NCBI GenBank assembly: GCA_016789645.1
Contig: JAEUQP010000341.1
Location: forward strand, 1-35,501
DNA length: 35,501 nucleotides
Source of the DNA: Acidobacteriota bacterium
GTDB taxonomy: Bacteria > Acidobacteriota > Blastocatellia > RBC074
Direction: 5' to 3'
Shown: piece by piece, positions 6,279-23,886 of the stretch
Numbering within the stretch: position 1 is the stretch's first letter
Layout: every line of letters starts with the position of its first letter
Notes under the pieces: generated by a model
Told to the model about the DNA's origin: nothing
Database searches by the model: none
What the model saw: the letters and a program-made list of their open reading frames with translations, nothing else
Program-made: the position numbers and the translations under genes

Positions 6279-6428
6279 CCCTGGCCTTTACTTTGTTTGG
6301 AAACGAAACCTACACACCCACGTAGTGTCTGGTGTTCGCGTTCGCGGTAATCTGTGGTCAAGTTCCCTGCGGAAACCGCCCACGATTAGTTGCAAATACG
6401 ATTCGCACCCATAAACGGCGAAGGAAAT

Positions 6429-7106
6429 ATGTCCGGTAACACTGCTCCAGCAAGCCCCCCACCATCTACCCCAATCAAGGTCGTAGTGGTCGAAGACATC
6501 CTAGATATCCGCGAGAGCCTGCGCATTATGATCAACGGCACAGAAGGTTTCCGCTGCATGGGCGCTTACTACTCCGCCGAAGAAGCGATGGAAAAGATCG
6601 GCAAGGAAGTCCCTGACGTAGTGCTGATGGACATCGGCCTGCCGAAGATGTCGGGCATCGAAGCCACGCGCCAGTTGAAAGCTCATTACCCAAAGCTTTT
6701 GATCCTGATGCTGACGGTCTACGACGACGACGAGCGTATCTTCAATTCGCTCTGCGCCGGAGCCTGCGGATACTTGCTGAAGAAGACGCCTCCCGCGCGC
6801 CTTCTTGAAGGTATCCAGGAAGCAGCAAACGGCGGCTCACCAATGACGCCCGAAATCGCCCGCCGCGTCGTCGAACTGTTCCAGCAATTTCACCCGCCAG
6901 TCCAGGCCGATTACCAACTTTCAGCACACGAAGTGCGTTTATTGAAAATGCTCGCCGAGGGACACAGTTACCGCTCCGCCGCGACCGTTTTGGGCGTTAC
7001 ACCGCATGCGGTGTCTTTTCACTTGCGAAATATCTACGAGAAGCTCCACGTTCATTCCAAATCTGAAGCGGTTGCAAAAGCGTTGCGAGATCATCTCATC
7101 GAATAA
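6429..7106 (+). CDS. NarL/LuxR-family response regulator
   Basis: ATG at 6429 after GAAGGA. Receiver domain (VVVVEDI..., VVLMDIGLPKMSG, LTVYDD). C-terminal LuxR HTH (LSAHEVRLLKMLAEGHSYRSAATVLGVTPHAVSFHLRNIYEKLHV). Directly downstream of the kinase. Confidence 0.9.
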   Translation: MSGNTAPASPPPSTPIKVVVVEDILDIRESLRIMINGTEGFRCMGAYYSAEEAMEKIGKEVPDVVLMDIGLPKMSGIEATRQLKAHYPKLLILMLTVYDDDERIFNSLCAGACGYLLKKTPPARLLEGIQEAANGGSPMTPEIARRVVELFQQFHPPVQADYQLSAHEVRLLKMLAEGHSYRSAATVLGVTPHAVSFHLRNIYEKLHVHSKSEAVAKALRDHLIE

Positions 7107-7358: not shown

Positions 7359-9953
7359 ATGGATCGCATTTCTTATGTCAAAGGATTGCTCAATCAACGT
7401 GCGCGAGGCAAAAAAAACACCGCGGCCCAACAGATCGAGGCGCTAAAAAGTCTGCCACGGCGACCTTCTTATGGTGTGCCACCTCAATGGGATGACGGGC
7501 AAGATCATGAAGTGCAGTTGATAACGCTCCGGCCGGAACATCGACGGTTACTGGGTGTAACGGAGGAATTTAAGGAGCCGGTCGGCCAGCTACCCGTGCT
7601 TCGTGTTCCCGATCCCAACCGGCCACCGACGGGAAAATCAGGATTAAGGTTAGCGACGAATGCCTTTGGTTCGGACCTGTTGGAAGGCTTGGCTTCCATT
7701 GCTGCCCAAGTCTCTGACGCTACCGCCGTTGCACCACAACCAAAGCTGCGCATCCGCGTGCAGGCAATAGTTTGCCGTAACGACGATGGCAAATTTTCCA
7801 ATGGTGGTCTGGGGCAGAGCCAGAAGGAACTGGCTTCGGCATTGACGAAGACGTTTGCCCACGTCAACAAAATCTATGAAGGGACCGGGATCGAACTGGT
7901 TTTTTACCCCTCCGCCGATCTCGAAATTCGAAACGATACCCGGCTTAACCAGGACTTCATCGTGCCGGAGTCCGACCGCGCCAAGCTGACGAAAAATCCA
8001 CCGCTTACTGTGGAAGAGATAAATAAACTGATCGAAGAAAAATGGACGATGCATGAACATCGCACCGCAATTGCCAAACAGTATCCTGGCAAAATGGTAT
8101 TACTCTTCGCCGAGGGAACAACTGTTTTCCTGGGCGTACCACCGACGCAAGATGGCTGGCGCTGGTGTAATAAATGTCAAGGGATGTTCTTTTCGGGTGC
8201 GGGCGCCGGCAAATGCCCTGCTGGCAGCGGGCATGACGCTAACGGTAGCGGCAACTACATGCTGACGTTTATGCATGACGAAACTGCGCAACAAACTCAG
8301 GATAACTGGCGATATTGTAAAAAGTGCCAGGGGCTGTATTTTGCCGGAAATAATGCTGGAGTTTGTCCGGCTGGCGCGGCACACGACGGCACGGATAGCG
8401 GCAATTATGTGCTCGGCGTTTCCTCAACTTCCATACCAAATTCTCAGAACAACTGGCGCTGGTGTAAGAAGTGTCAAGGGCTATTCTTCGCTGATAACAA
8501 CGCCGGGAAGTGCCCGGTTAGTAACACTCATGATGCCAGCGGGAGTGGTAATTACAGGCTACTGCTAGCCCACGAACAGGCGCTGCGTTGGGTTATTAGC
8601 TCTCCATCCGGCGGAGGCTTCTCTTCGCATGACATGGAGTTTGCCAAACTCTCCGAATGGGTTCCTGATTCGGACGCGGGGGCAGCCTCATACGCGACCT
8701 TAGTTGCCCACGAAACGGGCCATTTCCTGCACTTATGGCATACGTTCTATCAAATCGGTCTCACCGACCAAGAAAACGGCGATACTAAACTAACCAATGC
8801 TGGCAAGGCTGATATTTTGAGAAAGAGAATTGCCGCAGTTCTGGAGGGGGAGCAAAAGAAGGGCGTGCCAGCCAACAAACTTGTTGACATTCTGGATGCG
8901 GACGCCCAGGTCATTTCCGACACTCCTCCTGATGATGGTGGCGAATACCTATACTATACCAACCTCGTGAATAACACTGGAGACTCATGTGGAACGATTG
9001 GTACCGTTAAATTGACTTTGACCGATGGCACATCAGTCAGCTACACGCCGGATCGTAGCCTGGTGATGAGCTATTTCAAGGGGTGTGTCAACTTCAAACA
9101 GCACTTCTCGCCCAAACAGGCTGAACGCATGCGCAATGCGCTGATCAATGGCAATCGGCGCAGGCTGGTTGGCGTGCAGCTTGGTGACACATCCTATCCC
9201 GGAGAGTACGTGTGCGCTGCGTGGAATCCGAATTCGCAACCGCAGTTCTACACCTGGAATAACACGTTCGAAGAATTCAAGAAGCAGGAAAAGCAAAAAC
9301 GTGCTGAGGGAATGCGACTGCGGTCTCAACAAGCGTATACCGTCAATGGTCAAACGAAATATGACGGCATCTGGAATCCCGGGACGCATGAGCAAACTGT
9401 TATCTGGGGCTGGGCGGTCAATGATTTCAAAGCAAGGGATGCTGAGTTGAAGGGCAAGGGGCTGCGGTTGCGGCATTTCGAGTCTTACTTGCTACCGGAC
9501 GGACAAGTGCGCATAAACGCCATCTGGAATCCCGGCATGCAGTTGCAGGAATGGGTTCAGGGGTGGGCACCCGCTGATTTCATTACTAAGGCAAATGGCA
9601 TGCACCAGAAGGGGTTTCGTCTTGTTCATCTGAACTCCTGGAATATGGCGGACGGACAGTTACGCTTTGATGCTATTTGGGAGCCAGGCACCCAAGCTCA
9701 ATGGGTGCAATTCGACCTGACTGCTGATGCATTCCAGAAGAAATATGGTGAGATGTGGGCACAGGATTTCAAACTGCTATTGCTGGATGCTTACCGCGTA
9801 GGGAATGAGATTCGATTCAACGGTGTCTGGAACCCAGATGCTGGTCCACAGTACGTGGTCTGGAACAAGACCCGTGAACAAGTAAGAGCCGATTATGACG
9901 AGATGTGGCAGCAGGGGATGAAACTCACATCAATGAGTGCAGTCCGTTTGTAA
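7359..9953 (+). CDS. M43 (pappalysin/ulilysin-like) metzincin with an inserted triple Cys/His repeat and C-terminal WNPG tandem repeats
   Basis: ATG after AAAGGAGAG. Zinc motif HETGHFLHLWHTF at aa 451-463 (nt 8709-8747) fits HExxHxxGxxH-TF of M43 except that Gly is replaced by His. ISDTP (aa 519-523) and a Met-turn-like LVMSY (aa 568-572) lie downstream. Three 49-50-aa Cys repeats occupy aa 267-402. The C-terminal 4-5 repeats are of the G(I/V)WNPG type. No N-terminal signal peptide is visible. Confidence 0.75.
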   Translation: MDRISYVKGLLNQRARGKKNTAAQQIEALKSLPRRPSYGVPPQWDDGQDHEVQLITLRPEHRRLLGVTEEFKEPVGQLPVLRVPDPNRPPTGKSGLRLATNAFGSDLLEGLASIAAQVSDATAVAPQPKLRIRVQAIVCRNDDGKFSNGGLGQSQKELASALTKTFAHVNKIYEGTGIELVFYPSADLEIRNDTRLNQDFIVPESDRAKLTKNPPLTVEEINKLIEEKWTMHEHRTAIAKQYPGKMVLLFAEGTTVFLGVPPTQDGWRWCNKCQGMFFSGAGAGKCPAGSGHDANGSGNYMLTFMHDETAQQTQDNWRYCKKCQGLYFAGNNAGVCPAGAAHDGTDSGNYVLGVSSTSIPNSQNNWRWCKKCQGLFFADNNAGKCPVSNTHDASGSGNYRLLLAHEQALRWVISSPSGGGFSSHDMEFAKLSEWVPDSDAGAASYATLVAHETGHFLHLWHTFYQIGLTDQENGDTKLTNAGKADILRKRIAAVLEGEQKKGVPANKLVDILDADAQVISDTPPDDGGEYLYYTNLVNNTGDSCGTIGTVKLTLTDGTSVSYTPDRSLVMSYFKGCVNFKQHFSPKQAERMRNALINGNRRRLVGVQLGDTSYPGEYVCAAWNPNSQPQFYTWNNTFEEFKKQEKQKRAEGMRLRSQQAYTVNGQTKYDGIWNPGTHEQTVIWGWAVNDFKARDAELKGKGLRLRHFESYLLPDGQVRINAIWNPGMQLQEWVQGWAPADFITKANGMHQKGFRLVHLNSWNMADGQLRFDAIWEPGTQAQWVQFDLTADAFQKKYGEMWAQDFKLLLLDAYRVGNEIRFNGVWNPDAGPQYVVWNKTREQVRADYDEMWQQGMKLTSMSAVRL
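8157..8564 (+). repeat. three tandem 49-50-aa Cys/His repeats (coding) inside the metzincin gene
   Basis: WRWCNKCQGMFFSGAGAGKCPAGSGHDANGSGNYML / WRYCKKCQGLYFAGNNAGVCPAGAAHDGTDSGNYVL / WRWCKKCQGLFFADNNAGKCPVSNTHDASGSGNYRL. The spacing C-x2-C-x12-C-x5-H is invariant. Confidence 0.85.
9210..9950 (+). repeat. C-terminal ~50-aa tandem repeats of the WNPG type (BTRD1 / polyglycine-hydrolase N-domain-like), coding
   Basis: Recurrent units of the form ...(K/Q)G(L/F/M)RL...Y...G(Q).(R/K)(I/F/Y)(N/D)(A/G)IWNPG...(Q).V.GW...F. Instances are AAWNPN, DGIWNPG, NAIWNPG, DAIWEPG and NGVWNPD. Confidence 0.6.
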
Positions 9954-10036: not shown

Positions 10037-10207
10037 ATGGCAGAGACTCTAACTGTTTCGGTATTGCGACTGGATGATCTGCTCGTGCTGAAGTTTGAGT
10101 TCATCAACTTGGTGCGCAAAGAGATCGTTGACCCGCAACTGGGAAGATCAAAGAAGAAACACTATGCCGGATCAAAATCAGCTAAAAATTGGCAAGATAT
10201 TTCTTGA
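10037..10207 (+). CDS. 56-aa ORF with a strong Shine-Dalgarno, overlapping the start of the next gene; either a real small gene or the displaced N-terminus of the downstream gene
   Basis: AAGGAGG at 10021-10027, then a 9-nt spacer and ATG at 10037. Product MAETLTVSVLRLDDLLVLKFEFINLVRKEIVDPQLGRSKKKHYAGSKSAKNWQDIS*. It overlaps ATG 10164 of the repeat protein in a different frame. It falls below the ORF-track length cutoff. Confidence 0.35.
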   Translation: MAETLTVSVLRLDDLLVLKFEFINLVRKEIVDPQLGRSKKKHYAGSKSAKNWQDIS

Positions 10208-11468
10208 TGGCAAAAATGGAAGCATAACGTCAGGGGCTTTGGGTGGATCAGGTGTGCTTAAGCTCCTTGATAGTGCCGCCAGTGAATCGGTACTCATATC
10301 CGCTGAATCGCCGACGGCTATGGCTCAGCCGATAGCGGTAAAGGGGATAATTAAATTAGGGCAAGGGCAATATGAAGCGGAGGGCAGTAATAAAGGCGGA
10401 GGAAAGGTTACTCTCAAAAACTCCGCGTTAAAAAGTACCGTTAGCCTCGACGGCGAGAATGGCAGGGCACGTCTGGGCGATAGCGGCGTAGACGGCGCGG
10501 TGTCGGTGATCGGAGCTAACGGCGCTCCCGCTGTCGAATTGCTTGCCTTGCCAAAAGAATCTGTGATTGGAGCAGGCACTGCGAATCGTCCGGGGCGGTT
10601 GACGCTGTATAACGGCAACGGCCAGCAAACCGTCAACATCACAACGGCTGATGCCAAATTTTCACTTGGCGGTGGCGGTGTCGCCGGATCAATTTCGGTG
10701 TTTTGGGCTGATGGCAAGCCGTCAGTCGAGTTACTGGCTCGGATCAATGAATCAGTCATTGCCGCAGGGCAGGTCAATCGTCCGGGCCGGTTGACAATGT
10801 ATAACGGCAGCGGCCAACAAACCGTCAATCTCTCCACGACTGACGCCAAGTTCTCTCTCGGCGGTGGCGGCGTGAATGGCTCTTTGTCGGTCCTAGCGGC
10901 TGATGGCTCGCCGTTGATTGAGTTGCTTGGTAAAAAGGATGAATGCGTGATTGGACTTGGCCAATCAAATCGTCCAGGGCGAATCTCCATTTATAACGGC
11001 GGGCAAAACGAGGCCATTCGCCTAGACGGTGTTTCAGGCGATATTTTGCTGATGAATGCCGATTGCGCTGAGGAATTCGATGTCTCTGAATCTGACGTAG
11101 AGGTTGAACCCGGAACCGTGATGGTGCTCGATGAAAACGGTGCGCTCCGCCCAAGCTCGTCAGCATTCGATAGACGAGTGGCCGGCGTCGTTTCAGGGGC
11201 TGGCAAATATAAACCAGGAATTGTGCTCGACCGCCAAGTTTCAACCAAACCGCGTTTGCCGATAGCTCTGGTTGGCAAAGTCTATTGCAACGTAGACGCT
11301 TCATTCGGAGCAGTTCGAGTTGGAGATTTGCTAACAACCTCGGATACCTTAGGCCATGCAATGCGCGCCGACGACCCGCTTAAGGCTTTCGGCGCTGTCC
11401 TTGGGAAAGCTCTCCGTCCTCTGGCTTCCGGACAGGAGATGATCCCTATTCTGGTTGCACTTCAATAG
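10164..11468 (+). CDS. repeat protein (64-aa beta-rich repeats) with a conserved uncharacterised C-terminal module
   Basis: The ORF is open from 10095 (TTG). The first ATG at 10164 gives MPDQNQLKIGKIFLDG... Repeats are NRPGRLT(L/M)YNG.GQQTVN..T.DAKFSLGGGGV.GS.SV...DG.P..ELL. The C-terminal 143 aa start at GDILLMNADCAEEFDV and contain EPGTVMVLDE, VAGVVSGAG.YKPGIVLD, PIALVGKVYC.VDA, VGDLLTTS..GHAM and ends IPILVALQ. The start codon is uncertain and no signal peptide is visible. Confidence 0.75.
   Translation: MPDQNQLKIGKIFLDGKNGSITSGALGGSGVLKLLDSAASESVLISAESPTAMAQPIAVKGIIKLGQGQYEAEGSNKGGGKVTLKNSALKSTVSLDGENGRARLGDSGVDGAVSVIGANGAPAVELLALPKESVIGAGTANRPGRLTLYNGNGQQTVNITTADAKFSLGGGGVAGSISVFWADGKPSVELLARINESVIAAGQVNRPGRLTMYNGSGQQTVNLSTTDAKFSLGGGGVNGSLSVLAADGSPLIELLGKKDECVIGLGQSNRPGRISIYNGGQNEAIRLDGVSGDILLMNADCAEEFDVSESDVEVEPGTVMVLDENGALRPSSSAFDRRVAGVVSGAGKYKPGIVLDRQVSTKPRLPIALVGKVYCNVDASFGAVRVGDLLTTSDTLGHAMRADDPLKAFGAVLGKALRPLASGQEMIPILVALQ
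10392..11036 (+). repeat. about 3.3 tandem copies of a 192-nt (64-aa) coding repeat
   Basis: The anchor AATCGTCC(G/A)GG recurs at 10584, 10776 and 10968, an exact 192-nt period. An earlier, more diverged copy starts near 10392. Confidence 0.8.
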
Positions 11469-11522
11469 ATTCGGCAATTTCAAAATAACATCAACAACTG
11501 TCTAAGTAACAAGAGGAAAACC

Positions 11523-12023
11523 ATGCCAATCTCGGTGAAGAAAAATCTTCTGGCATCTGAAACAGGCTGTTGGCTTTCGCCATATTTCATTGTCAGCAAA
11601 GAGGAGCTAAAGGAAAAATCTGTATTCTACCAAGTTACTCAGGTCTCTGTTTATAATCCTAATGCTACTAAGGTTGATGTCAGAGTAACTTTTCATTATG
11701 AGCAATCGAGCAGGTTTGAATTCTCGTTAAAAATCTTTGGTGGGTTGGCGGCGACTAAAGTAGTTGGCTACCGTAATTGTATGAGCAACATGGATTTTGC
11801 GATATTTCCAGAAACGGAGCCGTGCCAGGTTGGCCGGATAGCTGTTTACAGCCCATTGCCAATATATGCGTGCGGCCAAATCAATATGTTTCAGGAGGGG
11901 CGTTCTAATACCCCACAACCTTATTTTTTCGACCATAGAAGCTATCCGCTAACCTTTCATCCCAATTTCACCGCAGACCCTAATTTTGATTTGCATCAAC
12001 TTACAATTGTACCAGGTGCCTGA
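11523..12023 (+). CDS. hypothetical protein (166 aa), low-GC orphan
   Basis: ATG after AGAGGAAAA. No signal peptide or TM helix. Hand counts of two 60-nt lines gave 33% and 40% GC, against roughly 55-60% in neighbouring genes. Possible distant resemblance to the ASRT-type beta-sandwich family, which is very tentative. Confidence 0.6.
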   Translation: MPISVKKNLLASETGCWLSPYFIVSKEELKEKSVFYQVTQVSVYNPNATKVDVRVTFHYEQSSRFEFSLKIFGGLAATKVVGYRNCMSNMDFAIFPETEPCQVGRIAVYSPLPIYACGQINMFQEGRSNTPQPYFFDHRSYPLTFHPNFTADPNFDLHQLTIVPGA

Positions 12024-12161
12024 CGACACTTATTCCATCTCAGTTTGAATATTGCAATCTGGATAATTTCAATGGCAAGCATCTTTGATTTTCCTTGCCC
12101 TCGTTGATACTGGCTGAAAAACGCTTCAGGTGCCATAAATTCTTGCCTGTAGAGGAAGGAT

Positions 12162-15080
12162 ATGAAGTCCATCACGACTTTGCTTTTAGTTTGTTGCGGT
12201 ACCCTGATCGCTTTTGGCCAGCAACTTACATTACAAGGCACGCTAACGACTGACGCACAATCGCCCGTTCCCGCCACCCGCATTAGCGTTCACGGGATTA
12301 CCAATACAACTGATCAGAAAGGGCAGTACAAGCTTGTCCTGGGCGGCAGTTTCCGCGAGGGTGAGCGAGTGATTATCGCCGTCGAAAAGATCGGCTGGGT
12401 GATCAATTCTCCGCTCGATGGTGAATGGAACCTACCGAACATTCGACTGCAGAATGTCCAAACATTGAAAATCATCCTTGTTCCTAAAGGCTCCAAATCG
12501 CTCTGGTCGCATGCTCGTATCGAGAAACATATCGCCAAGCTGTCTGATGAAATTGCGCGGTTGAAAGAAGATGACGATCAACCGCGCCCGGTTGATTTCA
12601 GCTTCTACCTGCGTGAATGGGCGGAGCAGTACGGCTTTACGCCGGAACAGGTCAAAGCAGCATTTGACGAATGGGCGAAGGCGGTCGAAAAGTCAGACGA
12701 TTATCGTGCGCTTGGGTTGCGCGCTTTCTACCAAAAGAACTTTCCACTCGCGGCGGAAAATTTCGTGAAGGCCGCGCAAAAAGATGAGGGCCAGATCAAG
12801 TCAGTCCAGGAGCAACTTGATAGAAACATTCTTGATGCATACAAGAATCGTAAAGACGCCGGCAGTTCGTTCAAGAACTCGTATCAGTATAAAGAGGCCT
12901 TAGAGCAATACGCCTTTGCCAAGCTTCATCTCGCGGGACTCACCTCGAAGGATAAATATTGGTATGAGCAGGCCCAGATAGAGTTGATGATTGGCAATGC
13001 GACGCGCGATATGGGAAAGGGCATTGACGGGGAAGAAGGAACTCGCTTACTCGCCAAGGCGATGGATTCGTACCAGCGTGCTTTTGTAGGTTTTACCCGT
13101 CAGCGATCGTTGAGAAATTGGGCGCTGACACAGAGGAACTTTGGAGATGCGTTGAAATCGTTAGGCGCGAGGATGGAGGACAACCAAAGCGCAAAGCTAT
13201 TCGCCGAAGCCATCGCTGCCTACCACAACGCTTTGCACGTATACATCCGGGAAAGATTCCCGGAAGACTGGGCGCTGACGCATGGTCGTCTGGGCGATGC
13301 ATTGCGATCGCAGAGCGCAATAATTGAGGATGCTCAAAGCGCAAAGCTGTTGGGTGAAGCTGTTGCGGCATACCAGAGTGCCTTGCTCGTCTATACTCGA
13401 GACAGATCGCAAAATGACTGGGCGTTTACGCAGAACTTATTGGGCCAAGCGTTAAAGTCTCTGAGCGAGAAAACAGAAGGATCTCCAAGCGTGAATCTGT
13501 TAGTCGAGGCTGTAACTGCCCACCGCAACGCCTTGCAGGTTTACACTCGTGAATACCTGCCGGTGGCCTGGGCGCTGACGCAGAACGATCTGGGCAATGC
13601 GTTGGAAGCACAAAGCGCCGCAGTGGAAGACGCTCAAAGCAGAAAGCTGCTGGCGGAGGCTGTCGCCGCTCACCGTCTCGCCTTGCAGGTTGAAACCCGC
13701 GAACGGTCGCCGAAAAGCTGGGCGATAATACAGAGAGGCCTGGGCAGCGCACTTTTAGCGCAAGGTCAGACGATAGCAGGTGAGGAAGGTGCGAACTTGT
13801 TGGCCGAAGCCGTGGTTGCCTATTGCAATGCCCTGCAGGTCAGAACCAGGGAGCAGTCCCCCCGACAATGGGCAGCGGCGCAGAACAGTTTGGGCAATGC
13901 ACTTTTGGCGCAAGGTCAGCGCGGGGCGTCCGCTGAAAGACTGAGGCTGCTAGCCGAAGCCGTAGCTGCCTACCACAACGCTTTGCAGGTCAGAACGCGC
14001 GAGCAATGGCCGCGACAATGGGCTGAGACGCAGGACAAGTTGTGTATTGCATTCTGGTCACAAGGTACCCGGATAGCAGGAACTGAAGGTGCGAAATTAC
14101 TGGCCGAAGCTGCGACGGCTTGTCGCAATGCCCTAGAGGTCAGAACCCGTGAGCAGTCACCGCAGAACTGGGCGGAGACGCAAAGCCATTTGGGAATCGC
14201 ATTATCCTCACAAGGAGTGCGGATAGCTGGCTCTGAAGGTGTGAGGTTACTGGTTGAAGCCGCCGCTGCCTACCGTAACGCATTGCTGGTTATAACCCGT
14301 GATAAATTGCCGCAGCGATGGGCAGAGACTCAGCACAATCTGGGCAGTGCATTGTGGAGGCAAGCTATATTTATGAAAGGTAATGATAGGGAGAGGCTGT
14401 TTGCCGAAGCCGTCATTGCTTACCGCAATGCCTTGCTGGTCCGAACTCCCGACCATTTGCCGGAGAAATGGGCGGAAACACAATACGGGCTTGGCGAAAC
14501 CTACTACTTCTCGGCTAGATGGAGTGACGCTGCGGAATGTTTTGCTAGTCTGTTGGCGCGGCGTCAGACCAATGAAATAGCTACTTTTTCTTATTCACGC
14601 CTGAGTGATATTTACCACGAGAGATTGTTTGAGTACGAATTGGCTTTCAAGCTGCATCAAAAGCGGCTGGCTGATTTCCCTGATAATCTGAATGCATTGG
14701 TTAATTTCGCGGAGACGCATTTTACCACGGGCAGATTTGCCGAATGTGAGCGACGGATCGCGGCGTTGCTTGCCAATCACCAAATCGCGGCGAGCACCTC
14801 ATTAGCCTTGCGTATGATAGACATTGCCAATTCGCTGGCGATGAACCAAGCCGATCAGGTTCCACCCAAACTTGAAGCGATAATTCGAGCCATTACTGAT
14901 CAGCCGGAAAACTTCAAATTTACCTGGACTTTCAATGGCACGCTGCATTTCATGGGGGAGAATGAAAAGTTGGCTGCCTACCGCGATTGGCTGAAGTTGT
15001 TGTTCAGTGCCGCGGAGGGTAAGAACCGCGATGCTGTCCTTAAGGTTTTGCGGGAAGCAAAGGCTGGATTCAAGTGGTAG
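12162..15080 (+). CDS. secreted protein: signal peptide, carboxypeptidase-regulatory-like beta-sandwich, helical linker, ten 50-aa TPR-like repeats, C-terminal helical domain
   Basis: ATG after GAGGAAGG. Signal peptide MKSITTLLLVCCGTLIAFG/QQ. The segment LQGTLTTDAQSPVPATRISVHGITNTTDQKGQYKL fits the CarboxypepD_reg pattern. Repeats follow LLAEAVAAYRNALQVRTREQ.P..WA.TQ.NLG.AL. No Walker or NTPase motif was seen. Confidence 0.85.
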   Translation: MKSITTLLLVCCGTLIAFGQQLTLQGTLTTDAQSPVPATRISVHGITNTTDQKGQYKLVLGGSFREGERVIIAVEKIGWVINSPLDGEWNLPNIRLQNVQTLKIILVPKGSKSLWSHARIEKHIAKLSDEIARLKEDDDQPRPVDFSFYLREWAEQYGFTPEQVKAAFDEWAKAVEKSDDYRALGLRAFYQKNFPLAAENFVKAAQKDEGQIKSVQEQLDRNILDAYKNRKDAGSSFKNSYQYKEALEQYAFAKLHLAGLTSKDKYWYEQAQIELMIGNATRDMGKGIDGEEGTRLLAKAMDSYQRAFVGFTRQRSLRNWALTQRNFGDALKSLGARMEDNQSAKLFAEAIAAYHNALHVYIRERFPEDWALTHGRLGDALRSQSAIIEDAQSAKLLGEAVAAYQSALLVYTRDRSQNDWAFTQNLLGQALKSLSEKTEGSPSVNLLVEAVTAHRNALQVYTREYLPVAWALTQNDLGNALEAQSAAVEDAQSRKLLAEAVAAHRLALQVETRERSPKSWAIIQRGLGSALLAQGQTIAGEEGANLLAEAVVAYCNALQVRTREQSPRQWAAAQNSLGNALLAQGQRGASAERLRLLAEAVAAYHNALQVRTREQWPRQWAETQDKLCIAFWSQGTRIAGTEGAKLLAEAATACRNALEVRTREQSPQNWAETQSHLGIALSSQGVRIAGSEGVRLLVEAAAAYRNALLVITRDKLPQRWAETQHNLGSALWRQAIFMKGNDRERLFAEAVIAYRNALLVRTPDHLPEKWAETQYGLGETYYFSARWSDAAECFASLLARRQTNEIATFSYSRLSDIYHERLFEYELAFKLHQKRLADFPDNLNALVNFAETHFTTGRFAECERRIAALLANHQIAASTSLALRMIDIANSLAMNQADQVPPKLEAIIRAITDQPENFKFTWTFNGTLHFMGENEKLAAYRDWLKLLFSAAEGKNRDAVLKVLREAKAGFKW
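13047..14546 (+). repeat. ten tandem 150-nt (50-aa) coding repeats, TPR-like helical hairpins
   Basis: Units begin LLAKAMDSY, LFAEAIAAY, LLGEAVAAY, LLVEAVTAH, LLAEAVAAH, LLAEAVVAY, LLAEAVAAY, LLAEAATAC, LLVEAAAAY and LFAEAVIAY, with an exact 50-aa period. The central units are also highly similar at the DNA level. Confidence 0.85.
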
Positions 15081-15098
15081 CAAGCGGAAGCTCAGGCG

Positions 15099-16031
15099 AT
15101 GCCCAAAGTTTTTATTAGCTATAACCGAGCCGATTTGAAGCACGCGCTGGCGTTGGAGCAGGCAATGCAGTCGCATGCCGTAAGCGTGTGGCGCGACCAG
15201 CATAGCCTGTATGGCGGGCAGCAGTGGCCGAAAACCATCGGCGAAGCGCTGGCTGATTGTGACGCGGTGTTGCTGCTTTGGTCGGCGAATGCCACCGCCG
15301 GACATTACGTTGAATTCGAGTGGAACACGGCGCTGGCTTTGAAGAAAAAGATCATTCCTTTGCTGCTCGACGACGCGACGCTGCCACCTGCGCTTACAGC
15401 CATCAATGCGATTCCTCACCGTGATCCGGATGAAACTGTAGCTCAAATTTTGATGGCTCTGCCGATTCAGCCGCAGATGCAAGAGACGGAACGGCGCGAA
15501 CGTGTCATCAAACAGCTTCAGTGCATTACAGCTTCTGAACCTGCCGAAGCATTGGCGCAGGCCAAGGCGCTTTTCTCACAAAGCAATATCAATGTCGGTG
15601 GTCATTTGATTCAGGGCGGCGACGTAAACGTAACGCTCGGCGAAAGTCGTCAGTTATTTCCAACGGTTGTCGCTGCATTAGTCGTCATCGTCATCGTCGT
15701 AGTGGCATCGTTTTACTTCACCTCAAGCAGCCGCCGCGCGCTGTCCCAAGCTGCGGCTTCGCCGACTGTCGAAGAGATGACTTACCTGCGCGGTCAGGTG
15801 GAAAATGCCGAAGGAAAGCCCCTAGACGGGGCAACCGTGAGGGTGGATGACATCGGCAAGCAGCCGTTGGAGACTACGACGACGAGCAGCGGTGGCTTCA
15901 TTATTGAAAATATTCCCGCCCGCATCGGCGATCGCGTTCGCGTCTACATCAGCAAGGAAGGGCATGAGACTCAAAATCAGTACGTTGCGCTGCCCGGCCC
16001 GCTGCCGACAGTCAGGTTGAAAAGAAAGTGA
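15099..16031 (+). CDS. TIR-domain protein: N-terminal TIR_2-type domain, single TM helix, C-terminal carboxypeptidase-regulatory-like beta-sandwich
   Basis: Starts 18 nt after the TPR gene. TIR motifs are KVFISYNRAD, VWRD...L.GG..W...I.EAL..CDAVLLLWS and S.NA...HYVEFEW..ALALKKKIIPLLLDD. The TM helix is LFPTVVAALVVIVIVVVASFYF (aa 186-207, about nt 15654-15719). The C-terminal YLRGQVENAEGKPLDGATVRVDD...GGFIIENIP.RIGDRVRVYISKEGH is beta-sandwich-like. The gene ends in a double stop, TGATGA. Confidence 0.85.
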   Translation: MPKVFISYNRADLKHALALEQAMQSHAVSVWRDQHSLYGGQQWPKTIGEALADCDAVLLLWSANATAGHYVEFEWNTALALKKKIIPLLLDDATLPPALTAINAIPHRDPDETVAQILMALPIQPQMQETERRERVIKQLQCITASEPAEALAQAKALFSQSNINVGGHLIQGGDVNVTLGESRQLFPTVVAALVVIVIVVVASFYFTSSSRRALSQAAASPTVEEMTYLRGQVENAEGKPLDGATVRVDDIGKQPLETTTTSSGGFIIENIPARIGDRVRVYISKEGHETQNQYVALPGPLPTVRLKRK

Positions 16032-16038
16032 TGAAAGC

Positions 16039-16414
16039 CGTTTGGCCCGTCAACCGCTGACGCCTGCGCGATTGCTCGACACCGGAGCGGTGCGTCCGGC
16101 ACCTGCTTCCTGCCGAATGCGCTGCTGACCGGCGACGTGGAATACAAGCCGCGCAAGGCGTCTGCACCATCGCCAATACGGCGCAAGCGATTGTCGGCAA
16201 TGCGACGACGGTCTGCCAGCAGCGGAACGGCTTCTTGACCTTCTGGCCGAGCAATGCTGTGACGAGGCCGCTGGCAGCGACCTCAAACTTCCAAGCAGGC
16301 AGAAACTTTAATCGCTATTACACGGCAGGATTGGGAACAGGCGGCGCTTTCAAGATGTACGCTTCACAAACCATCAATCTAGTTGTAGACGTTTCCGGGT
16401 ATTTCGCGCCGTGA
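16039..16414 (+). pseudogene. frameshifted remnant of a gene encoding an RLLDT...DVSGYFAP-type beta-rich domain
   Basis: Frame 1 reads ...QPLTPARLLDTGAVRPAPAS and stops at 16126. Frame 2 reads ...QGVCTIANTAQAIVGNATTVCQQRNGFLTFWPSNAVTRPLAATSNFQAGRNFNRYYTAGLGTGGAFKMYASQTINLVVDVSGYFAP* (stop 16412-16414) but has no start codon near its 5' end. The pieces together resemble a single about 110-aa domain. Confidence 0.5.
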
Positions 16415-16477
16415 GTAGGCTGATTTCTGACGTTAGCCGCAACCACACGGTGCTGGAGGCTCTGAAAGGGAAGCGGC

Positions 16478-17302
16478 TTATTGCTTTACAGATTCGGTAG
16501 GGACAGCATTTGGAGAAAGGGTTTCTTTGTAGATAAGTACAGGCATTCCGACAGGCGTCGTTTTATAAAACTCTTTCGCCGCAAACATGGGGATTCGCAC
16601 GCAGCCGTGGCTGGCAGGTTTGGTTGGAACAGATTTTGAGCCGTGAATTGCCGTGCCGTACATAAAATAAACCGGGTAATACATCTCGCCGAGCGCGCTT
16701 TTTTTCCAGCCAGGGATTTTCTGGCGAACCTGATATCTGCCCGGATGGGTGATGGCGTCGCGCGCCCAGCCTTCAGAAACGAATTCTTTACCGTTGCCGG
16801 TCGAAACGGGCAATACGCGGGTGACGGTTCCCGTGTCATCCACCACAAACAGCACTTGGCGAACCAGGTCAACTTCGATATGAGCCGCGCCGGTTTCAGT
16901 TGGCGTGGGACGATCAGCGGTCATCAGCGTGTCGAAGGTTGCGCGCGTCAGTTGCCCCGACGGTTTCAACCGCTCGACTTTTTGAAAGGCAATCAGCGCA
17001 TTTCTGGAAGCCTCATCCCAACTGCCGTCAATTTTTCCAGTCCAATAGCCCAAATCCCTCAAACGCTGCTCAGCTTGACGATGGTCTTTAGCGGTTAGCG
17101 GCTTCGCTTTTTGCGGCTGCTTGGGGGAGGTGGTTGAACGTGATTTTTCAGGAGCAATTCTGGGGCGAGTGGACTGAGCGTCAACCTGTGTGACGAAACT
17201 GGCAAACAGGCAAACGATCAGTGTCGGGATCAGAAAACCGCGGGGGCGAAGTCGGCGTGAAAAAGCATTCGTCAAAATCGCTTGGTACAACATAGTTTCC
17301 AA
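16478..17302 (-). CDS. L,D-transpeptidase (YkuD) with a peptidoglycan-binding domain
   Basis: N-terminal hydrophobic signal or anchor. PG_binding_1-like LRDLGYWTGKIDGSWDEASRNALIAFQK. YkuD catalytic region AIHGS...PASHGCVRIP. Confidence 0.85.
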   Translation of the reverse strand: METMLYQAILTNAFSRRLRPRGFLIPTLIVCLFASFVTQVDAQSTRPRIAPEKSRSTTSPKQPQKAKPLTAKDHRQAEQRLRDLGYWTGKIDGSWDEASRNALIAFQKVERLKPSGQLTRATFDTLMTADRPTPTETGAAHIEVDLVRQVLFVVDDTGTVTRVLPVSTGNGKEFVSEGWARDAITHPGRYQVRQKIPGWKKSALGEMYYPVYFMYGTAIHGSKSVPTKPASHGCVRIPMFAAKEFYKTTPVGMPVLIYKETLSPNAVPTESVKQ

Positions 17303-17337
17303 CTTAACACGAAAAGATTGTAAACAGGCTCCTGAAT

Positions 17338-18324
<987 letters not shown>

Positions 18325-18331
18325 ACCTTCA

Positions 18332-18467
18332 CAATTGCGGAGTGGGGATTGCGGGTCGCGGATTCGCTTTGGCGATGCTTCCGGTTTGATTGGATTGTAT
18401 TTTGCCGAGTGTCGGAAAGAAGAGCCTTGGTTCAATCCGCAATCGCCAATCCTCAACCCGCGCAATC
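18332..18467. repeat. imperfect inverted pair of GATTGCGG-type repeat arms (REP-like element) between rbfA and nrnA
   Basis: The left arm CAATTGCGGAGTGGGGATTGCGGGTCGCGGATTCG (18332-18366) faces the right arm CAATCCGCAATCGCCAATCCTCAACCCGCGCAATC (18433-18467), which is roughly its reverse complement. Confidence 0.5.
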
Positions 18468-18819
18468 ATTCTTCCGGCAACTCCTTTTTGATTTCTTCCA
18501 TCAACTGCAACATATGATCGCCGTGCGCGATCGTTTCGTCGTAAACAAAAGTCACCTCCGGCGTGTGGCGTAATCGAAACCGTTGGCCGATCAACTGACG
18601 GAAAAACGTTCTTTCGCTGTTGAGTATCTCGAGCGTGTCTTTTTGTTCTTGCGGGGAGCCGAAAACGCTGACGAAAACGCGTGCATGGCGCAAATCGGGG
18701 CTGACCTTGACTTCAGTGATGGTGACAAAGCCCAGGCGATGATGAGGCATCTCGCGCGAAATAATCGCGCTGATTTCATTCTTGAGTTCGTGCGCTAATC
18801 TGTTCGGACGATACTGCAT
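18466..18819 (-). CDS. rbfA: ribosome-binding factor A
   Basis: 117 aa. Contains RLGFVTITEVKVSPDLRHARVFVSV and RLRHTPEVTFVYDETI. Sits in the conserved position downstream of infB. Confidence 0.9.
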   Translation of the reverse strand: MQYRPNRLAHELKNEISAIISREMPHHRLGFVTITEVKVSPDLRHARVFVSVFGSPQEQKDTLEILNSERTFFRQLIGQRFRLRHTPEVTFVYDETIAHGDHMLQLMEEIKKELPEE

Positions 18820-18837
18820 AAATCAGTTTCCAGTCCT

Positions 18838-18899
18838 CAGTTTCCGGTTTCCAGTGTCATAGCAGAAGCGTTGCCTTGAAGGCTGGAAACCGGAAGCTG
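18838..18899 (-). repeat. 17-bp inverted repeat (GGAAACCGGAAAC type) forming a hairpin in the infB-rbfA spacer
   Basis: CAGTTTCCGGTTTCCAG (18838-18854) pairs with CTGGAAACCGGAAGCTG (18883-18899) at 16 of 17 positions around a 28-nt loop. A further GTTTCCAG copy lies at 18827-18834. Confidence 0.6.
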
Positions 18900-18903
18900 A
18901 AAA

Positions 18904-21843: not shown

Positions 21844-21906
21844 TTATTCCTTTCGACTCATCGGAATGGGTAGCGCTGTGTTCAAGTTGTGTAGGCGTTG
21901 ACCAAG

Positions 21907-23406: not shown

Positions 23407-23418
23407 CGTCCTCTGCTT

Positions 23419-23886
23419 TTACGGTTCGATTTCGACATTTGCCTTGATGATCTTGGCCAGCGGCAAGTGATGGCGTTTGCCATTTTCCTCTTCGAGGATT
23501 GCCGCTGTTTCGCCTTCTCGATCAAGGCCAATCAATTTGCCATGAAAATTCTTTTGCCCGTTGATGGCTTCCGACATCTTGATGTGAGAGGGAAGCCCGG
23601 CAAAACGTTCGTAATCAGACTCCTTATACAGCCCGCGATCCAACCCCGGTGACGAAACTTCCAACATGTATTCGCCTGGAATCGGGTCTTCCACGTCCAG
23701 GATCAGACTGATTCGTTCGCTGATATGCGCGCAATCGTCAACGGTTACTCCACCGGGTTTATCAATGAAAACTCGCAAGATTGGATTTCGTCCACTAGTC
23801 ATTTCGACGTGAACGAGTTCAATTCCTTCACGCGCAGTCACGCGCTCGGCAATCTCGCTGATTCGCGGATCTACCTTCAACCGCAT
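23419..23886 (-). CDS. rimP: ribosome maturation factor RimP
   Basis: 155 aa. Contains the LEVSSPGLDRGL motif. Sits immediately upstream of nusA, as in the canonical rimP-nusA-infB operon. Confidence 0.92.
   Translation of the reverse strand: MRLKVDPRISEIAERVTAREGIELVHVEMTSGRNPILRVFIDKPGGVTVDDCAHISERISLILDVEDPIPGEYMLEVSSPGLDRGLYKESDYERFAGLPSHIKMSEAINGQKNFHGKLIGLDREGETAAILEEENGKRHHLPLAKIIKANVEIEP

What the first reader, a model, noticed from the sequence alone, without database searches (positions are those of the whole stretch)
12162..16031. Secreted TPR-array protein paired with a membrane-anchored TIR protein: candidate outside-in TIR signalling pair
Seen in the sequence:
- Gene D (12162-15080) has a cleavable-looking signal peptide, a carboxypeptidase-regulatory-like beta-sandwich, a helical linker and ten 50-aa TPR-like repeats.
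- Gene E (15099-16031) starts 18 nt downstream. It has an N-terminal TIR domain with no signal peptide, one TM helix, and a C-terminal beta-sandwich.
- The two beta-sandwich modules align. D aa 23-80 is TLQGTLTTDAQSPVPATRISVHGITNTTDQKGQYKLVLGGSFREGERVIIAVEKIGW. E aa 229-289 is YLRGQVENAEGKPLDGATVRVDDIGKQPLETTTTSSGGFIIENIPARIGDRVRVYISKEGH. They share L.G...........P....(T/R)(I/V).V..I, TT...G and R.G(E/D)RV.(I/V).(V/I).K.G.

Established knowledge: characterised bacterial TIR systems pair a cytosolic TIR NADase or signal synthase with cytosolic sensors or effectors. Examples are Thoeris ThsB/ThsA, TIR-STING, TIR-SAVED and TIR-STAND/Avs.

Inference: every sensor-like element here (the TPR array and both related beta-sandwiches) is predicted to lie outside the cytoplasmic membrane, and only the TIR domain lies inside. 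That is a Toll-like-receptor-style topology. It fits no named TIR system I know: there is no NTPase, no SIR2/SLOG/Macro domain and no cyclase.
Basis: partly seen in the sequence, partly recalled or inferred. Interest (0 to 1): 0.8.

Follow-up and report, generated by a model that had tools for sequence, protein, structure and literature searches.

The report
Membrane TIR enzyme with secreted partner
Two adjacent genes encode a membrane-anchored TIR enzyme (the NAD-cleaving domain used in immune signalling) and an exported repeat protein; the pair recurs in many bacterial phyla and is laid out like a Toll-like receptor split into two pieces, but its function has not been tested.

Summary
D (12162-15080) has a signal peptide, a transthyretin-like (TTR) beta-sandwich, a helical region, ten exact 50-aa TPR-like repeats and a cap. 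E (15099-16031) has a TIR domain with the catalytic Glu (E74), a helical linker, one TM helix and a CarboxypepD_reg sandwich. The two sandwiches are homologous at profile level (hhalign 96.5%, E 9e-10).

The pair is a conserved two-gene module. All 27 genome loci with an E-type gene of about 310-335 aa and enough flank carry a D-type gene beside it, in at least eight phyla, often with a 4-nt overlap. Flanking genes differ. Gene order is inverted in the window and in its closest relative.

About 30 D orthologues keep Sec-type signal peptides.

Relatives show modularity:
- The partner upstream of D-type genes can be TIR-TM-TTR, CHAT protease-TM-TTR or 3TM-TTR.
- One variant is a single chain, TIR-TM-TPR, with both sandwiches gone.
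- Others are soluble TIR-TTR-TPR or trypsin-TTR-TPR.

Best reading: a trans-envelope sensor/effector conflict system in which the periplasmic TPR protein controls clustering of a cytoplasmic TIR NADase. Topology, NADase activity, TTR-TTR contact and a defence role are all inferred. No PADLOC, NCBIfam or literature match was found. The closest named relatives are TIR-II and DdvA.

The parts
12162..15080 (+). Gene D: exported TTR-sandwich / TPR-array protein, 972 aa
   Evidence: ORF. The family has 418 representatives at 50% identity. It lies next to E-type genes.
12162..12218 (+). D signal peptide, aa 1-19 (MK, hydrophobic core, A-F-G then QQ)
   Evidence: Hydropathy. The same n/h/c layout with a small-x-small site is conserved in about 30 orthologues. 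In the AF2 model it is a low-confidence N-terminal helix detached from the fold. Not run through SignalP.
12225..12485 (+). D transthyretin-like / CarboxypepD_reg-like beta-sandwich, aa 22-108
   Evidence: AF2 strands at 22-108. Foldseek matches the SusC NTE domain and carboxypeptidase D TTR domains. hhalign to the E C-terminal domain gives 96.5%. No Pfam hit.
12510..13031 (+). D conserved helical region, aa 117-290 (VPKGS..LW..ARIEKH.., DFSFYLREWAEQYGFTPEQVK..)
   Evidence: AF2 helices. It holds the family's invariant residues, including R119 I120 E121 W153 F159 K165 W171.
13032..14531 (+). Ten TPR-like repeats of exactly 50 aa each, aa 291-790 (consensus LLAEAV.AY.NAL.V.TRE..P..WA.TQ..LG.AL)
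   Evidence: Anchor motifs are spaced exactly 50 aa apart, nine times in a row; mean pairwise identity is 46%. Repeated HMM domain hits. Pfam TPR_12/TPR_19 are below threshold here, but TPR_12 scores E 1e-14 in homologue P0107.
14532..15080 (+). D non-repeat C-terminal cap, aa 791-972, plus stop codon
   Evidence: 90% identical in the closest relative L060. The same cap motif (F.W.F.G...F ... R.WL..L......RD) is seen in P0091, P0133, P0145 and P0153.
15081..15098 (+). 18-nt D-E spacer
   Evidence: Sequence. The spacing is the same in L060. In loci with E-then-D order the genes often overlap by 4 nt.
15099..16031 (+). Gene E: TIR / linker / TM / TTR-sandwich protein, 310 aa
   Evidence: ORF. 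85 homologues with the same architecture. AF2 model.
15099..15458 (+). E TIR domain, aa 1-120
   Evidence: Pfam TIR_2, E 3e-21. Foldseek matches SARM1 and SPARTA TIR domains. The PDB profile search finds Cat1, 7uxr and SARM1.
15318..15320 (+). Codon of E74, the predicted catalytic glutamate (motif HYVEFEW)
   Evidence: Invariant in 33 sequences. It aligns with the catalytic Glu of SARM1 (E642) and the equivalent Glu of Cat1 and 7uxr.
15486..15572 (+). E conserved cytoplasmic linker helices, aa 130-158
   Evidence: AF2 helices at 130-141 and 148-158. Invariant residues V136, L140 and A155.
15654..15722 (+). E transmembrane helix, aa 186-208
   Evidence: Kyte-Doolittle 19-residue window up to 2.9. 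AF2 helix at 187-207. Present in all family members.
15777..16019 (+). E C-terminal CarboxypepD_reg / TTR beta-sandwich, aa 227-307, predicted periplasmic
   Evidence: Pfam PF13620, E 7.6e-10. AF2 and Foldseek match teneurin and carboxypeptidase D/N TTR domains. Homologous to the D N-terminal sandwich.

Best explanation
D and E form a two-gene, trans-envelope sensor/effector module of the biological-conflict (defence) type.

Proposed layout
- E sits in the inner membrane. Its TIR domain and helical linker are in the cytoplasm. Its small TTR sandwich is in the periplasm.
- D is exported by Sec. It carries a paralogous TTR sandwich followed by a long TPR solenoid whose repeat number varies between orthologues.

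Proposed mechanism (inferred)
- The two TTR sandwiches dock D onto E in the periplasm.
- An event at the TPR array changes the oligomeric state of D. The event could be ligand binding, or loss of D.
- That change clusters E across the membrane.
- Clustering assembles the composite TIR active site, and the enzyme consumes NAD+. The result is growth arrest or death.

Shown and inferred
- Shown: domain content, conservation of the catalytic residue, homology of the two sandwiches, conserved signal peptides, conserved adjacency in both gene orders, and effector swapping.
- Inferred: topology, TTR-TTR contact, activation by induced proximity, NADase output and a defence role.
For: Domains and the catalytic residue
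- Domains and models.
- E74 is invariant and aligns with the catalytic Glu of known TIR NADases. D33 and G40 align with D594 and G601 of the SARM1 BB loop.

Linkage of the two genes
- 27 of 27 genome loci with an E-type gene of about 310-335 aa and at least 1.2 kb of downstream sequence have a D-type gene beside it. Phyla include Acidobacteriota, Bacteroidota, Nitrospirota, Nitrospinota, KSB1, Desulfobacterota and Proteobacteria. The genes are often 4-nt overlapped.
- Gene order is inverted in the window and in its closest relative L060, yet adjacency is kept.
- Flanking genes are unrelated between loci.

Export of D
- About 30 diverged orthologues keep signal peptides with small-x-small sites.

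The two sandwiches
- They are homologous at profile level.
- In the single-chain membrane variant P0133, both sandwiches are missing and the TM joins directly to the D helical body. P0133 was seen in two samples. This is what one would expect if the sandwiches normally provide the non-covalent link.

Effector swapping, typical of conflict systems
- Upstream of D-type genes the TM-TTR partner carries the E-type TIR (10 loci), a CHAT caspase-like protease with an intact His/Cys motif (Pfam CHAT, E 2.5e-28; 9 to 11 loci), three TM helices only, or a second TIR clade.
- A trypsin-like peptidase replaces TIR in the soluble fusion P0142.
- TIR, caspase-like and pore-type effectors are all activated by oligomerisation in known systems (established knowledge).

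Sensor-like behaviour of the repeats
- Repeat number ranges from about 3 to at least 20 among orthologues.
- It differs by exactly two repeats between two otherwise identical loci.

Context
- In Aquiflexum the pair sits among two GmrSD genes, a T5orf172 gene and a MazG-like gene.
Against: - No experiment exists. NADase activity, export of D, the D-E contact and any phenotype are all untested.
- The positive-inside rule is neutral for the E TM helix.
- Soluble single-chain relatives (TIR-TTR-TPR with no TM or signal peptide) are conserved in Nitrospira-like genomes. The same sensor body therefore works in the cytoplasm, and those forms keep the TTR sandwich. The sandwich must do more than dock E.
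- Most genomic contexts, including the window, are not defence islands.
- E has no homologue in the phage or plasmid collections.
- A distant clade of secreted D-like proteins has no such partner next to it.
- No ligand can be named.
Confidence: 0.55

Rival explanations
1. Guard or inhibitor model. The components and topology are the same, but D is a periplasmic inhibitor that keeps E monomeric. E fires when D is degraded, titrated or mislocalised, for example by envelope damage or an invader's protease. Activation is by loss of D rather than by ligand-induced clustering.
For: - The evidence for linkage and topology is the same as for the main model.
- Tight translational coupling, often a 4-nt overlap, resembles toxin-antidote gene pairs.
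- E-type proteins with longer ectodomains exist without D (L018, L041, L047). The TIR-TM unit can therefore stand alone.
Against: - Covalent single-chain forms (P0133, P0153) cannot lose their 'inhibitor'.
- Large arrays with variable repeat number are typical of ligand sensors rather than antidotes.
Confidence: 0.2
2. Physiological signalling rather than defence. The pair is an envelope or environment sensor. Its TIR domain makes an NAD-derived second messenger, or acts as a scaffold, that feeds regulators encoded elsewhere.
For: - The window and most other contexts are housekeeping or metabolic.
- The same TIR clade is fused to a Ser/Thr kinase-TM-TPR receptor in Acidobacteriota.
- No effector that reads a TIR product is encoded next to the pair.
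Against: - Interchange of TIR with CHAT protease, trypsin-like protease and TM-only modules is the signature of terminal effectors in conflict systems, not of one specific messenger pathway.
- The distribution is patchy and the flanks vary, which suggests horizontal mobility.
- The Aquiflexum locus lies in a defence-island-like region.
Confidence: 0.17
3. The topology is misread. Both proteins act on the cytoplasmic side, with the hydrophobic segments serving only as membrane anchors. The system would then be an ordinary cytosolic TIR-TPR (TIR-II-like) system tethered to the membrane.
For: - Soluble TIR-TTR-TPR relatives exist.
- The positive-inside rule does not orient the E helix.
- No dedicated predictor could be run.
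Against: - D orthologues have short, positively charged n-regions, h-regions of 12-18 aa and small-x-small sites directly before the mature domain. That is the layout of a cleaved Sec signal peptide, not an N-out anchor.
- CarboxypepD_reg/TTR domains and the Pro/Ser/Thr-rich spacer after the TM are typical of extracytoplasmic proteins.
- E has a single TM helix of about 23 aa between its two folded domains, so both domains cannot be on the same side.
Confidence: 0.05

Closest known systems
TIR-II antiphage system of E. coli (TIR + TPR, in one protein or two; Nat Commun 2024, PMC11350192)
   Same: A TIR effector whose catalytic Glu is required, coupled to a TPR array and no NTPase in most members. 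TIR and TPR can be fused or split over two genes.
   Different: TIR-II as described has no signal peptide, no TM helix between TIR and TPR, and no TTR sandwiches. Sequence relatedness to D and E was not tested, because no TIR-II sequence was available here.
TIR NADases activated by assembly: SARM1, Cat1, SPARTA TIR-APAZ, TIR-STING
   Same: The fold and the catalytic Glu are shared. These are the best sequence and structure matches. They are activated by oligomerisation (established knowledge).
   Different: They are all cytosolic. Their triggers are intracellular ligands: NMN, cA4, guide/target nucleic acid or c-di-GMP. None has a TM helix or an extracytoplasmic domain.
Animal Toll-like receptors
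   Same: A repeat solenoid outside the cell, a single TM helix and a TIR domain inside, with activation by induced dimerisation. The single-chain variant P0133 has this layout literally.
   Different: TLRs have the opposite polarity (type I, TIR at the C-terminus). Their solenoid is LRR, not TPR. Their TIR domains are scaffolds, not enzymes. Here the receptor is usually split into two proteins. This is an analogy of design, with no evidence of descent.
DdvA-DdvS of Myxococcus xanthus (PMC11506125)
   Same: A periplasmic TPR(-CHAT) module on a single-pass membrane protein controls an antiviral response. It is a precedent for envelope-side TPR sensing in defence.
   Different: The output is release of an ECF sigma factor and transcription of CBASS/CRISPR genes. 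It is not an enzyme fused to the TM helix. There is no TIR, no TTR pair and no separate secreted subunit.
TPR-CHAT proteins (Csx29 of Craspase; CHAT-TPR proteins of multicellular bacteria; eLife 2020, PMC7159879)
   Same: The same kind of TPR repeat and the same effector repertoire (TIR, caspase-like, trypsin-like). Sister modules here carry CHAT in place of TIR.
   Different: Those systems are cytosolic, and many depend on NTPases or on CRISPR effectors. In the modules found here the CHAT or TIR domain is separated from the TPR array by the membrane.
Zorya
   Same: A defence system thought to detect an event at the envelope and pass it to the cytoplasm (abstract).
   Different: Zorya uses a MotAB-like ion-driven motor complex with soluble nuclease or helicase partners. 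It shares no components with D and E.

Membership tests
Pfam TIR_2 (PF13676) / catalytic TIR NADases | Significant match to the TIR_2 model | tested here: met
   E 3e-21, 76.6 bits against a cut-off of 28, aa 4-116. Structural match to the SARM1 TIR, TM about 0.7.
Pfam TIR_2 (PF13676) / catalytic TIR NADases | Conserved catalytic glutamate | tested here: met
   E74 is invariant in 33 sequences and aligns with SARM1 E642 and the equivalent Glu of Cat1 and 7uxr.
Pfam TIR_2 (PF13676) / catalytic TIR NADases | NAD+ cleavage activity | not testable with these tools
   Needs a biochemical assay.
CarboxypepD_reg / transthyretin-like domain | HMM or structural match, in E C-terminus and D N-terminus | tested here: met
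   E: PF13620, E 7.6e-10, above the cut-off, plus Foldseek TTR matches. D: no Pfam hit, but the AF2 sandwich matches the SusC NTE domain and carboxypeptidase D TTR domains, and hhalign to the E domain gives 96.5%.
Thoeris (types I-III) | ThsB-type TIR together with a ThsA-type effector (SIR2-SLOG or Macro-TM) in the operon | tested here: not met
   No SIR2, SLOG or Macro domain in D, E or their neighbours. PADLOC ThsB, E 1.5e-6, covers the generic TIR part only. NCBIfam ThcB4 scores 39 bits against a cut-off of 220.
CBASS / Pycsar / type III CRISPR TIR effectors (TIR-STING, TIR-SAVED, PycTIR, Cat1) | A nucleotide-sensing domain (STING, SAVED, CARF, cNMP-binding) fused to TIR, and a cyclase or CRISPR locus nearby | tested here: not met
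   No such domain in E. The PADLOC SAVED_TIR hit covers only the TIR part, aa 3-82. No cyclase among the window genes scanned with Pfam.
Avs / STAND / bNACHT with TIR effector | A central STAND NTPase between effector and repeat sensor | tested here: not met
   No P-loop, NACHT or NB-ARC hit in D or E. The D model is a sandwich plus helical repeats only.
TIR-II (E. coli TIR + TPR) | TIR plus TPR, fused or as two adjacent genes, no other enzymatic domain | tested here: met
   The architecture matches at this coarse level (paper).
TIR-II (E. coli TIR + TPR) | Sequence homology to the validated E. coli TIR-II protein; cytosolic location | not tested
The signal peptide and TM helix argue that the location differs.
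Toll-like receptors | LRR ectodomain, type I single-pass topology, C-terminal scaffolding TIR domain | tested here: not met
   TPR rather than LRR, TIR at the N-terminus, catalytic Glu present. Analogy only.
New module defined here: effector-TM-TTR plus signal peptide-TTR-TPR | Adjacent genes: (i) cytoplasmic or membrane effector, one TM helix and a TTR sandwich; (ii) signal peptide, TTR sandwich, conserved helical region, 50-aa repeats and a cap | tested here: met
   The window pair has every element. The pattern recurs in 27 of 27 E-centred loci and 32 of 40 D-centred loci.
New module defined here: effector-TM-TTR plus signal peptide-TTR-TPR | N-in/C-out topology of E and export of D | tested here: inconclusive
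   The conserved signal peptides support export of D. The orientation of E is not resolved by flanking charges. No dedicated predictor or experiment was available.

The most novel reading that the evidence does not exclude
D and E belong to a widespread, modular family of bacterial trans-envelope immune receptors.
- A secreted TPR solenoid surveys the periplasm for non-self or damage. Candidates are phage tail or ejection proteins, imported toxins and envelope breach.
- TTR-TTR docking and clustering of the TM helix would then switch on a cytoplasmic death effector (TIR NADase, CHAT protease or pore).
- This would be a prokaryotic counterpart of Toll-like receptor logic, and the first TIR system triggered from outside the cytoplasm.
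Probability: 0.35. Interest if true: 0.9.

Novelty: new variant of a known kind. Interest (0 to 1): 0.75.

Why it matters
All characterised bacterial TIR systems sense events inside the cytoplasm. A system whose sensor sits in the periplasm and whose TIR, CHAT or pore effector sits on the other side of one TM helix could respond before or during genome entry, or to non-phage attacks on the envelope.

It would also show that the solenoid-TM-TIR design of animal Toll-like receptors has a bacterial counterpart.

The family offers a natural set of controls that makes the mechanism directly testable:
- split forms;
- covalently fused membrane forms;
- soluble forms;
- three interchangeable effectors.

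Two cultured hosts carry the full pair: Cyclobacterium salsum and Aquiflexum gelatinilyticum.

Tried and rejected
- Pairwise BLASTP of the two sandwiches: not significant (E 0.13). Superseded by the profile-profile comparison.
- Pfam on the D N-terminus: no CarboxypepD_reg hit. The structure model was needed.
- PADLOC and NCBIfam: only weak, generic TIR matches and no system assignment.
- Positive-inside rule on the TM flanks of 57 E-family proteins: not discriminating.
- Promoter and terminator consensus scans over 11400-16600: counts at shuffle level, uninformative.
- tblastn of E against the phage and plasmid collections: no match.
- Possible third gene. The three upstream same-strand genes (864, 457 and 166 aa) and the downstream YkuD gene have no homologue in any of the 113 loci held at that point. 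They are not part of the module.
- Word-indexed search with the D N-terminus: only 19 hits. The exhaustive phmmer search showed the family is much larger, at 418 representatives.
- Literature searches for a TIR-TM-TTR plus secreted-TPR system: no description found. The library is incomplete, so this is absence of evidence only.
- Considered and rejected: D as a lipoprotein. The Cys residues lie inside the h-region without a proper lipobox and are not conserved.
- Considered and rejected: chance adjacency. It is excluded by the recurrence counts.

Full report
1. WHAT IS IN THE WINDOW

Both ORFs are present exactly as reported. D is 12162-15080 (+), 972 aa. E is 15099-16031 (+), 310 aa. The spacer is 18 nt.

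E
- Pfam TIR_2 covers aa 4-116 (E 3e-21). CarboxypepD_reg covers aa 230-298 (E 7.6e-10). Both are above Pfam's cut-offs.
- Hydropathy shows one strong TM segment at about aa 186-208 and no N-terminal hydrophobic segment.
- An AlphaFold2 model built on 33 homologues (pLDDT 79.5) shows the TIR fold at 1-120, two linker helices at 130-158, a disordered stretch, a TM helix at 187-207 and a seven-stranded sandwich at 227-307.
- Foldseek matches the TIR domain to the SARM1 and SPARTA TIR domains. It matches the sandwich to the transthyretin-like (TTR) domains of teneurins and carboxypeptidases D and N.
- A profile of the family finds Cat1, a bacterial TIR protein (7uxr) and SARM1 in the PDB. In those alignments E74 of the invariant motif (S/G)H(F/Y)VEFEW sits on the catalytic glutamate. 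D33 and G40 sit on the SARM1 BB-loop residues D594 and G601.

D
- D has one hydrophobic segment, at the extreme N-terminus: MKSITTLLLVCCGTLIAFG followed by QQ.
- Pfam sees only sub-threshold TPR matches and no CarboxypepD_reg domain.
- A confident model of aa 1-335 (pLDDT 87.9) has a detached N-terminal helix, a beta-sandwich at 22-108 and then helices. The sandwich is closest to the NTE (CarboxypepD_reg-type) domain of a SusC transporter and to carboxypeptidase D TTR domains.
- The repeat array is strictly periodic. Ten W-A-x-T-Q anchors are spaced exactly 50 residues apart, covering aa 291-790, with 46% mean pairwise identity.
- A non-repeat cap of about 180 aa follows.

The two sandwiches
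- Profile against profile it is significant (hhalign 96.5%, E 9.4e-10 over 59 columns).

2. IS THE PAIR A UNIT?

E-centred evidence
- The E architecture (TIR_2 plus CarboxypepD_reg, about 310-330 aa) recurs in 85 protein clusters. Sources include Blastocatellia and other Acidobacteriota, Calditrichia and Cyclobacteriaceae.
- A scan of one genome per species with the family profile gave 52 loci. They come from Acidobacteriota, Bacteroidota, Nitrospirota, Nitrospinota, KSB1, Calditrichia, Syntrophales, Nitrosomonas and others.
- I built an HMM of the D N-terminal 335 aa and searched all ORFs of these loci.
- Thirty loci had a full-length E-type gene and at least 1.2 kb of downstream DNA. Twenty-six have a D-type gene within 800 nt, and one more (L011) has it 908 nt away.
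- The three exceptions (L018, L041, L047) encode longer proteins (386-412 aa) with an enlarged ectodomain.
- For the 310-335-aa class the score is therefore 27 of 27.
- Start and stop codons often overlap by 4 nt.

Gene order and flanks
- In almost all loci the order is E then D. In the window and in its closest relative L060 the order is D then E with the same 18-nt spacer. In L060 E is 75% identical and the D C-terminus is 90% identical.
- Flanking genes differ from locus to locus.
- The three genes upstream of D in the window and the YkuD gene downstream have no homologue in any of the 113 loci held at that point.
- Adjacency that survives an inversion of order and changing surroundings across phyla is strong evidence of a functional two-gene module.

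D-centred evidence
- The reciprocal metagenome scan used the D profile and gave 48 loci.
- Of the 40 loci with at least 600 nt of upstream sequence, 32 have a gene ending within 120 nt of the D start whose product ends in TM plus TTR.
- Five of the eight exceptions belong to a distant D clade (31-32% identity) that is also secreted but has no such neighbour.
- One exception (L109) has a frameshifted E-type gene 144 nt upstream.

3. TOPOLOGY

- About 30 D orthologues that differ greatly in sequence all begin with a short K/R-containing n-region and a 12-18-residue hydrophobic core. A small-x-small site follows (AFG/Q, SLA/K, VFA/Q, SVA/K, LSA/Q, AHA/E and others), directly before the first strand of the sandwich. 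This is the layout of cleaved Sec signal peptides. Conservation of the pattern without conservation of the sequence argues that it is functional.
- E has no signal peptide ahead of its 180-aa folded TIR-linker region. It has a single TM helix.
- After the TM there is a Pro/Ser/Thr-rich spacer and a domain type found in extracytoplasmic proteins.
- The positive-inside rule does not help. Mean K+R is 2.49 on the N-terminal side and 2.25 on the C-terminal side in 57 family members.
- The N-in/C-out assignment is therefore an inference. It rests on four points: there is no export signal, TIR needs cytoplasmic NAD+, the C-terminal domain is of an extracytoplasmic type, and the partner is exported.
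- No dedicated predictor was available.

4. WHAT THE RELATIVES ADD

An exhaustive phmmer search with D aa 20-240 found 418 representatives at 50% identity. Most have the module starting at residue 20-60, which is the signal-peptide type. The exceptions and the neighbours are informative.

(a) Single-chain membrane form
- P0133 (617 aa) is TIR of the same clade, then linker, then TM (KKWWEKWQAK followed by the helix), then directly the D helical body, repeats and cap. Both sandwiches are absent.
- It was assembled from two independent samples and stands alone.
- This is what a deletion between the TM of E and the end of the D sandwich in an E-then-D operon would produce. It suggests that the two sandwiches normally supply the link that is covalent here.

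(b) Soluble single-chain forms
- P0153 (865 aa, in a 4.0-Mb contig), P0174, P0145, L028 and L056 are TIR, linker, D-type sandwich, helical body and repeats, with no TM or signal peptide.
- The sensor body can therefore also work in the cytoplasm, and it keeps its sandwich there.

(c) Effector swapping
- Upstream of D-type genes the TM-TTR protein carries one of four N-terminal modules:
  - the E-type TIR (10 loci);
  - a CHAT caspase-like protease (Pfam CHAT, E 2.5e-28, with HYAGHG and NACQG motifs intact; 9 complete genes plus 2 partial);
  - three TM helices and nothing else (for example L096 and L095);
  - a different TIR clade with an extra domain (L073, L079).
- P0142 is a trypsin-like peptidase fused to the D-type sandwich and repeats.
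- The juxtamembrane motif LLERWQxW, then TM, then LDLPxKI is shared by the TIR-type and CHAT-type partners. The TM segment is therefore part of the conserved core.

(d) Kinase fusion
- The same TIR clade is fused to a Ser/Thr kinase in three Acidobacteriota loci (L025, L026, L032). L026 shows the full kinase, TM, periplasmic domain and TPR chain; L025 ends at the contig edge and L032 is interrupted by masked sequence.

(e) Repeat number
- Repeat number ranges from about 3 (P0091, 566 aa) to at least 20 (L027, 1457 aa).
- Two otherwise identical loci (L001 and L003) differ by exactly 300 nt, which is two repeats. This may be real polymorphism or assembly collapse.

5. MECHANISM

TIR, caspase-like protease, trypsin-like protease and TM-only modules are the standard interchangeable effectors of prokaryotic conflict systems (PMC7159879; PMC11350192). 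In characterised cases all of them are switched on by induced proximity or oligomerisation (established knowledge for SARM1, TIR-STING, Cat1, SPARTA and caspases).

The best-supported model is this. E is an inner-membrane TIR NADase held inactive as a monomer. D is its periplasmic partner, docked through the paralogous TTR sandwiches. A change at the TPR array alters the oligomeric state of D. That change clusters the TM helices and assembles active TIR oligomers in the cytoplasm, which depletes NAD+.

- Shown: the parts, the conservation of the catalytic residue, the genetic linkage and the modularity.
- Inferred: topology, docking, clustering, NADase output and a defence role.

Rivals
- A guard model, in which loss of D activates E.
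- A physiological signalling role. This is supported by mostly non-defence contexts and by the kinase fusions.
- A misread topology.

Context gives only weak support for defence.
- In Aquiflexum the pair sits among two GmrSD genes, a T5orf172 gene and a MazG-like gene.
- In Cyclobacterium it sits near ParE and HTH genes.
- In the window it lies between a two-component system with secreted-protein genes on one side and the nusA-infB-rbfA operon on the other.
- E has no relatives in the phage or plasmid collections.

6. COMPARISON WITH KNOWN SYSTEMS

PADLOC and NCBIfam give only partial, generic TIR matches: SAVED_TIR 1e-9, ThsB 1.5e-6, and ThcB4 at 39 bits against a cut-off of 220.

- Membership in Thoeris, CBASS/Pycsar/CRISPR TIR effectors and Avs/STAND fails on defining partners or domains.
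- The nearest named system is E. coli TIR-II (TIR plus TPR, fused or split, validated against phages). As described it has no signal peptide, no TM between TIR and TPR, and no TTR pair. Homology could not be tested.
- DdvA of Myxococcus shows that a periplasmic TPR(-CHAT) module on a single-pass protein can control antiviral genes, but through a sigma factor.
- Toll-like receptors share the design (solenoid outside, one TM, TIR inside). They have the opposite polarity, LRRs and a non-catalytic TIR. This is analogy, not membership.
- Five literature searches found no description of this module. The library is incomplete.

7. VERDICT

The unit is broader than proposed: a modular family made of an effector-TM-TTR protein and a signal peptide-TTR-TPR protein.

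I rate it a new variant of a known kind. TIR or CHAT effectors coupled to TPR sensors are known. Separating the two across the membrane is new. Interest is 0.75. The main uncertainties are the experimental topology, the D-E contact, the enzymatic output and the trigger.

Noticed in passing
window 7359-9953 (+): An 864-aa protein with four BTRD1 (polyglycine-hydrolase-like) repeats (Pfam E 1.4e-27) and a weak M43-like metallopeptidase stretch. It also has three Cys-rich repeats of about 45 aa (NWRxCxKCQGxFF..NAGxCP....HD...SGNY). It is on the same strand as D and E but is not conserved next to the pair elsewhere.
   Followed up: partly
window 10095-11468 (+) and 11523-12023 (+): Proteins of 457 aa (three internal repeats of about 52 aa) and 166 aa, directly upstream of D. 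Neither has a Pfam, NCBIfam or PADLOC hit. Neither has a homologue in the 113 related loci held at that point.
   Followed up: partly
L001 8337-11147 against L003 6691-9201: Two metagenome contigs carry an identical E-type gene and identical flanks. Their D-type genes differ by exactly 300 nt, which is two 50-aa repeats (936 against 836 aa). This is either repeat copy-number polymorphism in a population or assembly collapse.
   Followed up: partly
L025, L026, L032 (Acidobacteriota MAGs): The same TIR clade and part of the linker are fused to a Ser/Thr protein kinase. L026 shows the full chain (at least 855 aa, running off the contig end): kinase, TM helix, periplasmic domain and TPR repeats. 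L025 ends at the contig edge and L032 is interrupted by masked sequence.
   Followed up: no
L070, L072, L074, L077, L080, L081, L084, L086, L097 (metagenome contigs): Sister modules in which the partner of the secreted TTR-TPR protein is a CHAT caspase-like protease, then TM, then TTR (about 500 aa). The His/Cys motifs are intact.
   Followed up: partly
L075, L091, L095, L096 (metagenome contigs): Sister modules in which the partner is a three-TM membrane protein ending in the TTR sandwich, with no enzymatic domain. It could be a pore-type effector.
   Followed up: no
L114 1-9254 (Aquiflexum gelatinilyticum JANAEZ010000001.1): The pair is preceded by two GmrSD_N genes, a 949-aa T5orf172/MUG113 protein, a MazG-like gene and a 660-aa TPR protein. 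This is the only clearly defence-island-like context seen.
   Followed up: no
L099-L105, L108 (metagenome contigs): A distant clade of secreted D-like proteins (31-32% identity, about 600-700 aa) has no TM-TTR partner next to it. In L100 and L101 a soluble 344-aa TIR protein is encoded divergently upstream.
   Followed up: no
window 3204-7106 (+): A 1024-aa Reg_prop/Y_Y_Y hybrid sensor histidine kinase and a LuxR-type response regulator lie upstream of the secreted-protein genes. No link to D and E was established.
   Followed up: no
window 16478-23886 (-): A YkuD L,D-transpeptidase with a PG_binding_1 domain lies here. It is followed by a housekeeping gene run: a DHH/DHHA1 (NrnA-like) gene, NusA and ORFs that look like rbfA, infB and rimP (these three were named from their translations, not scanned). 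The pair therefore lies in core chromosome, not in an obvious mobile element.
   Followed up: partly
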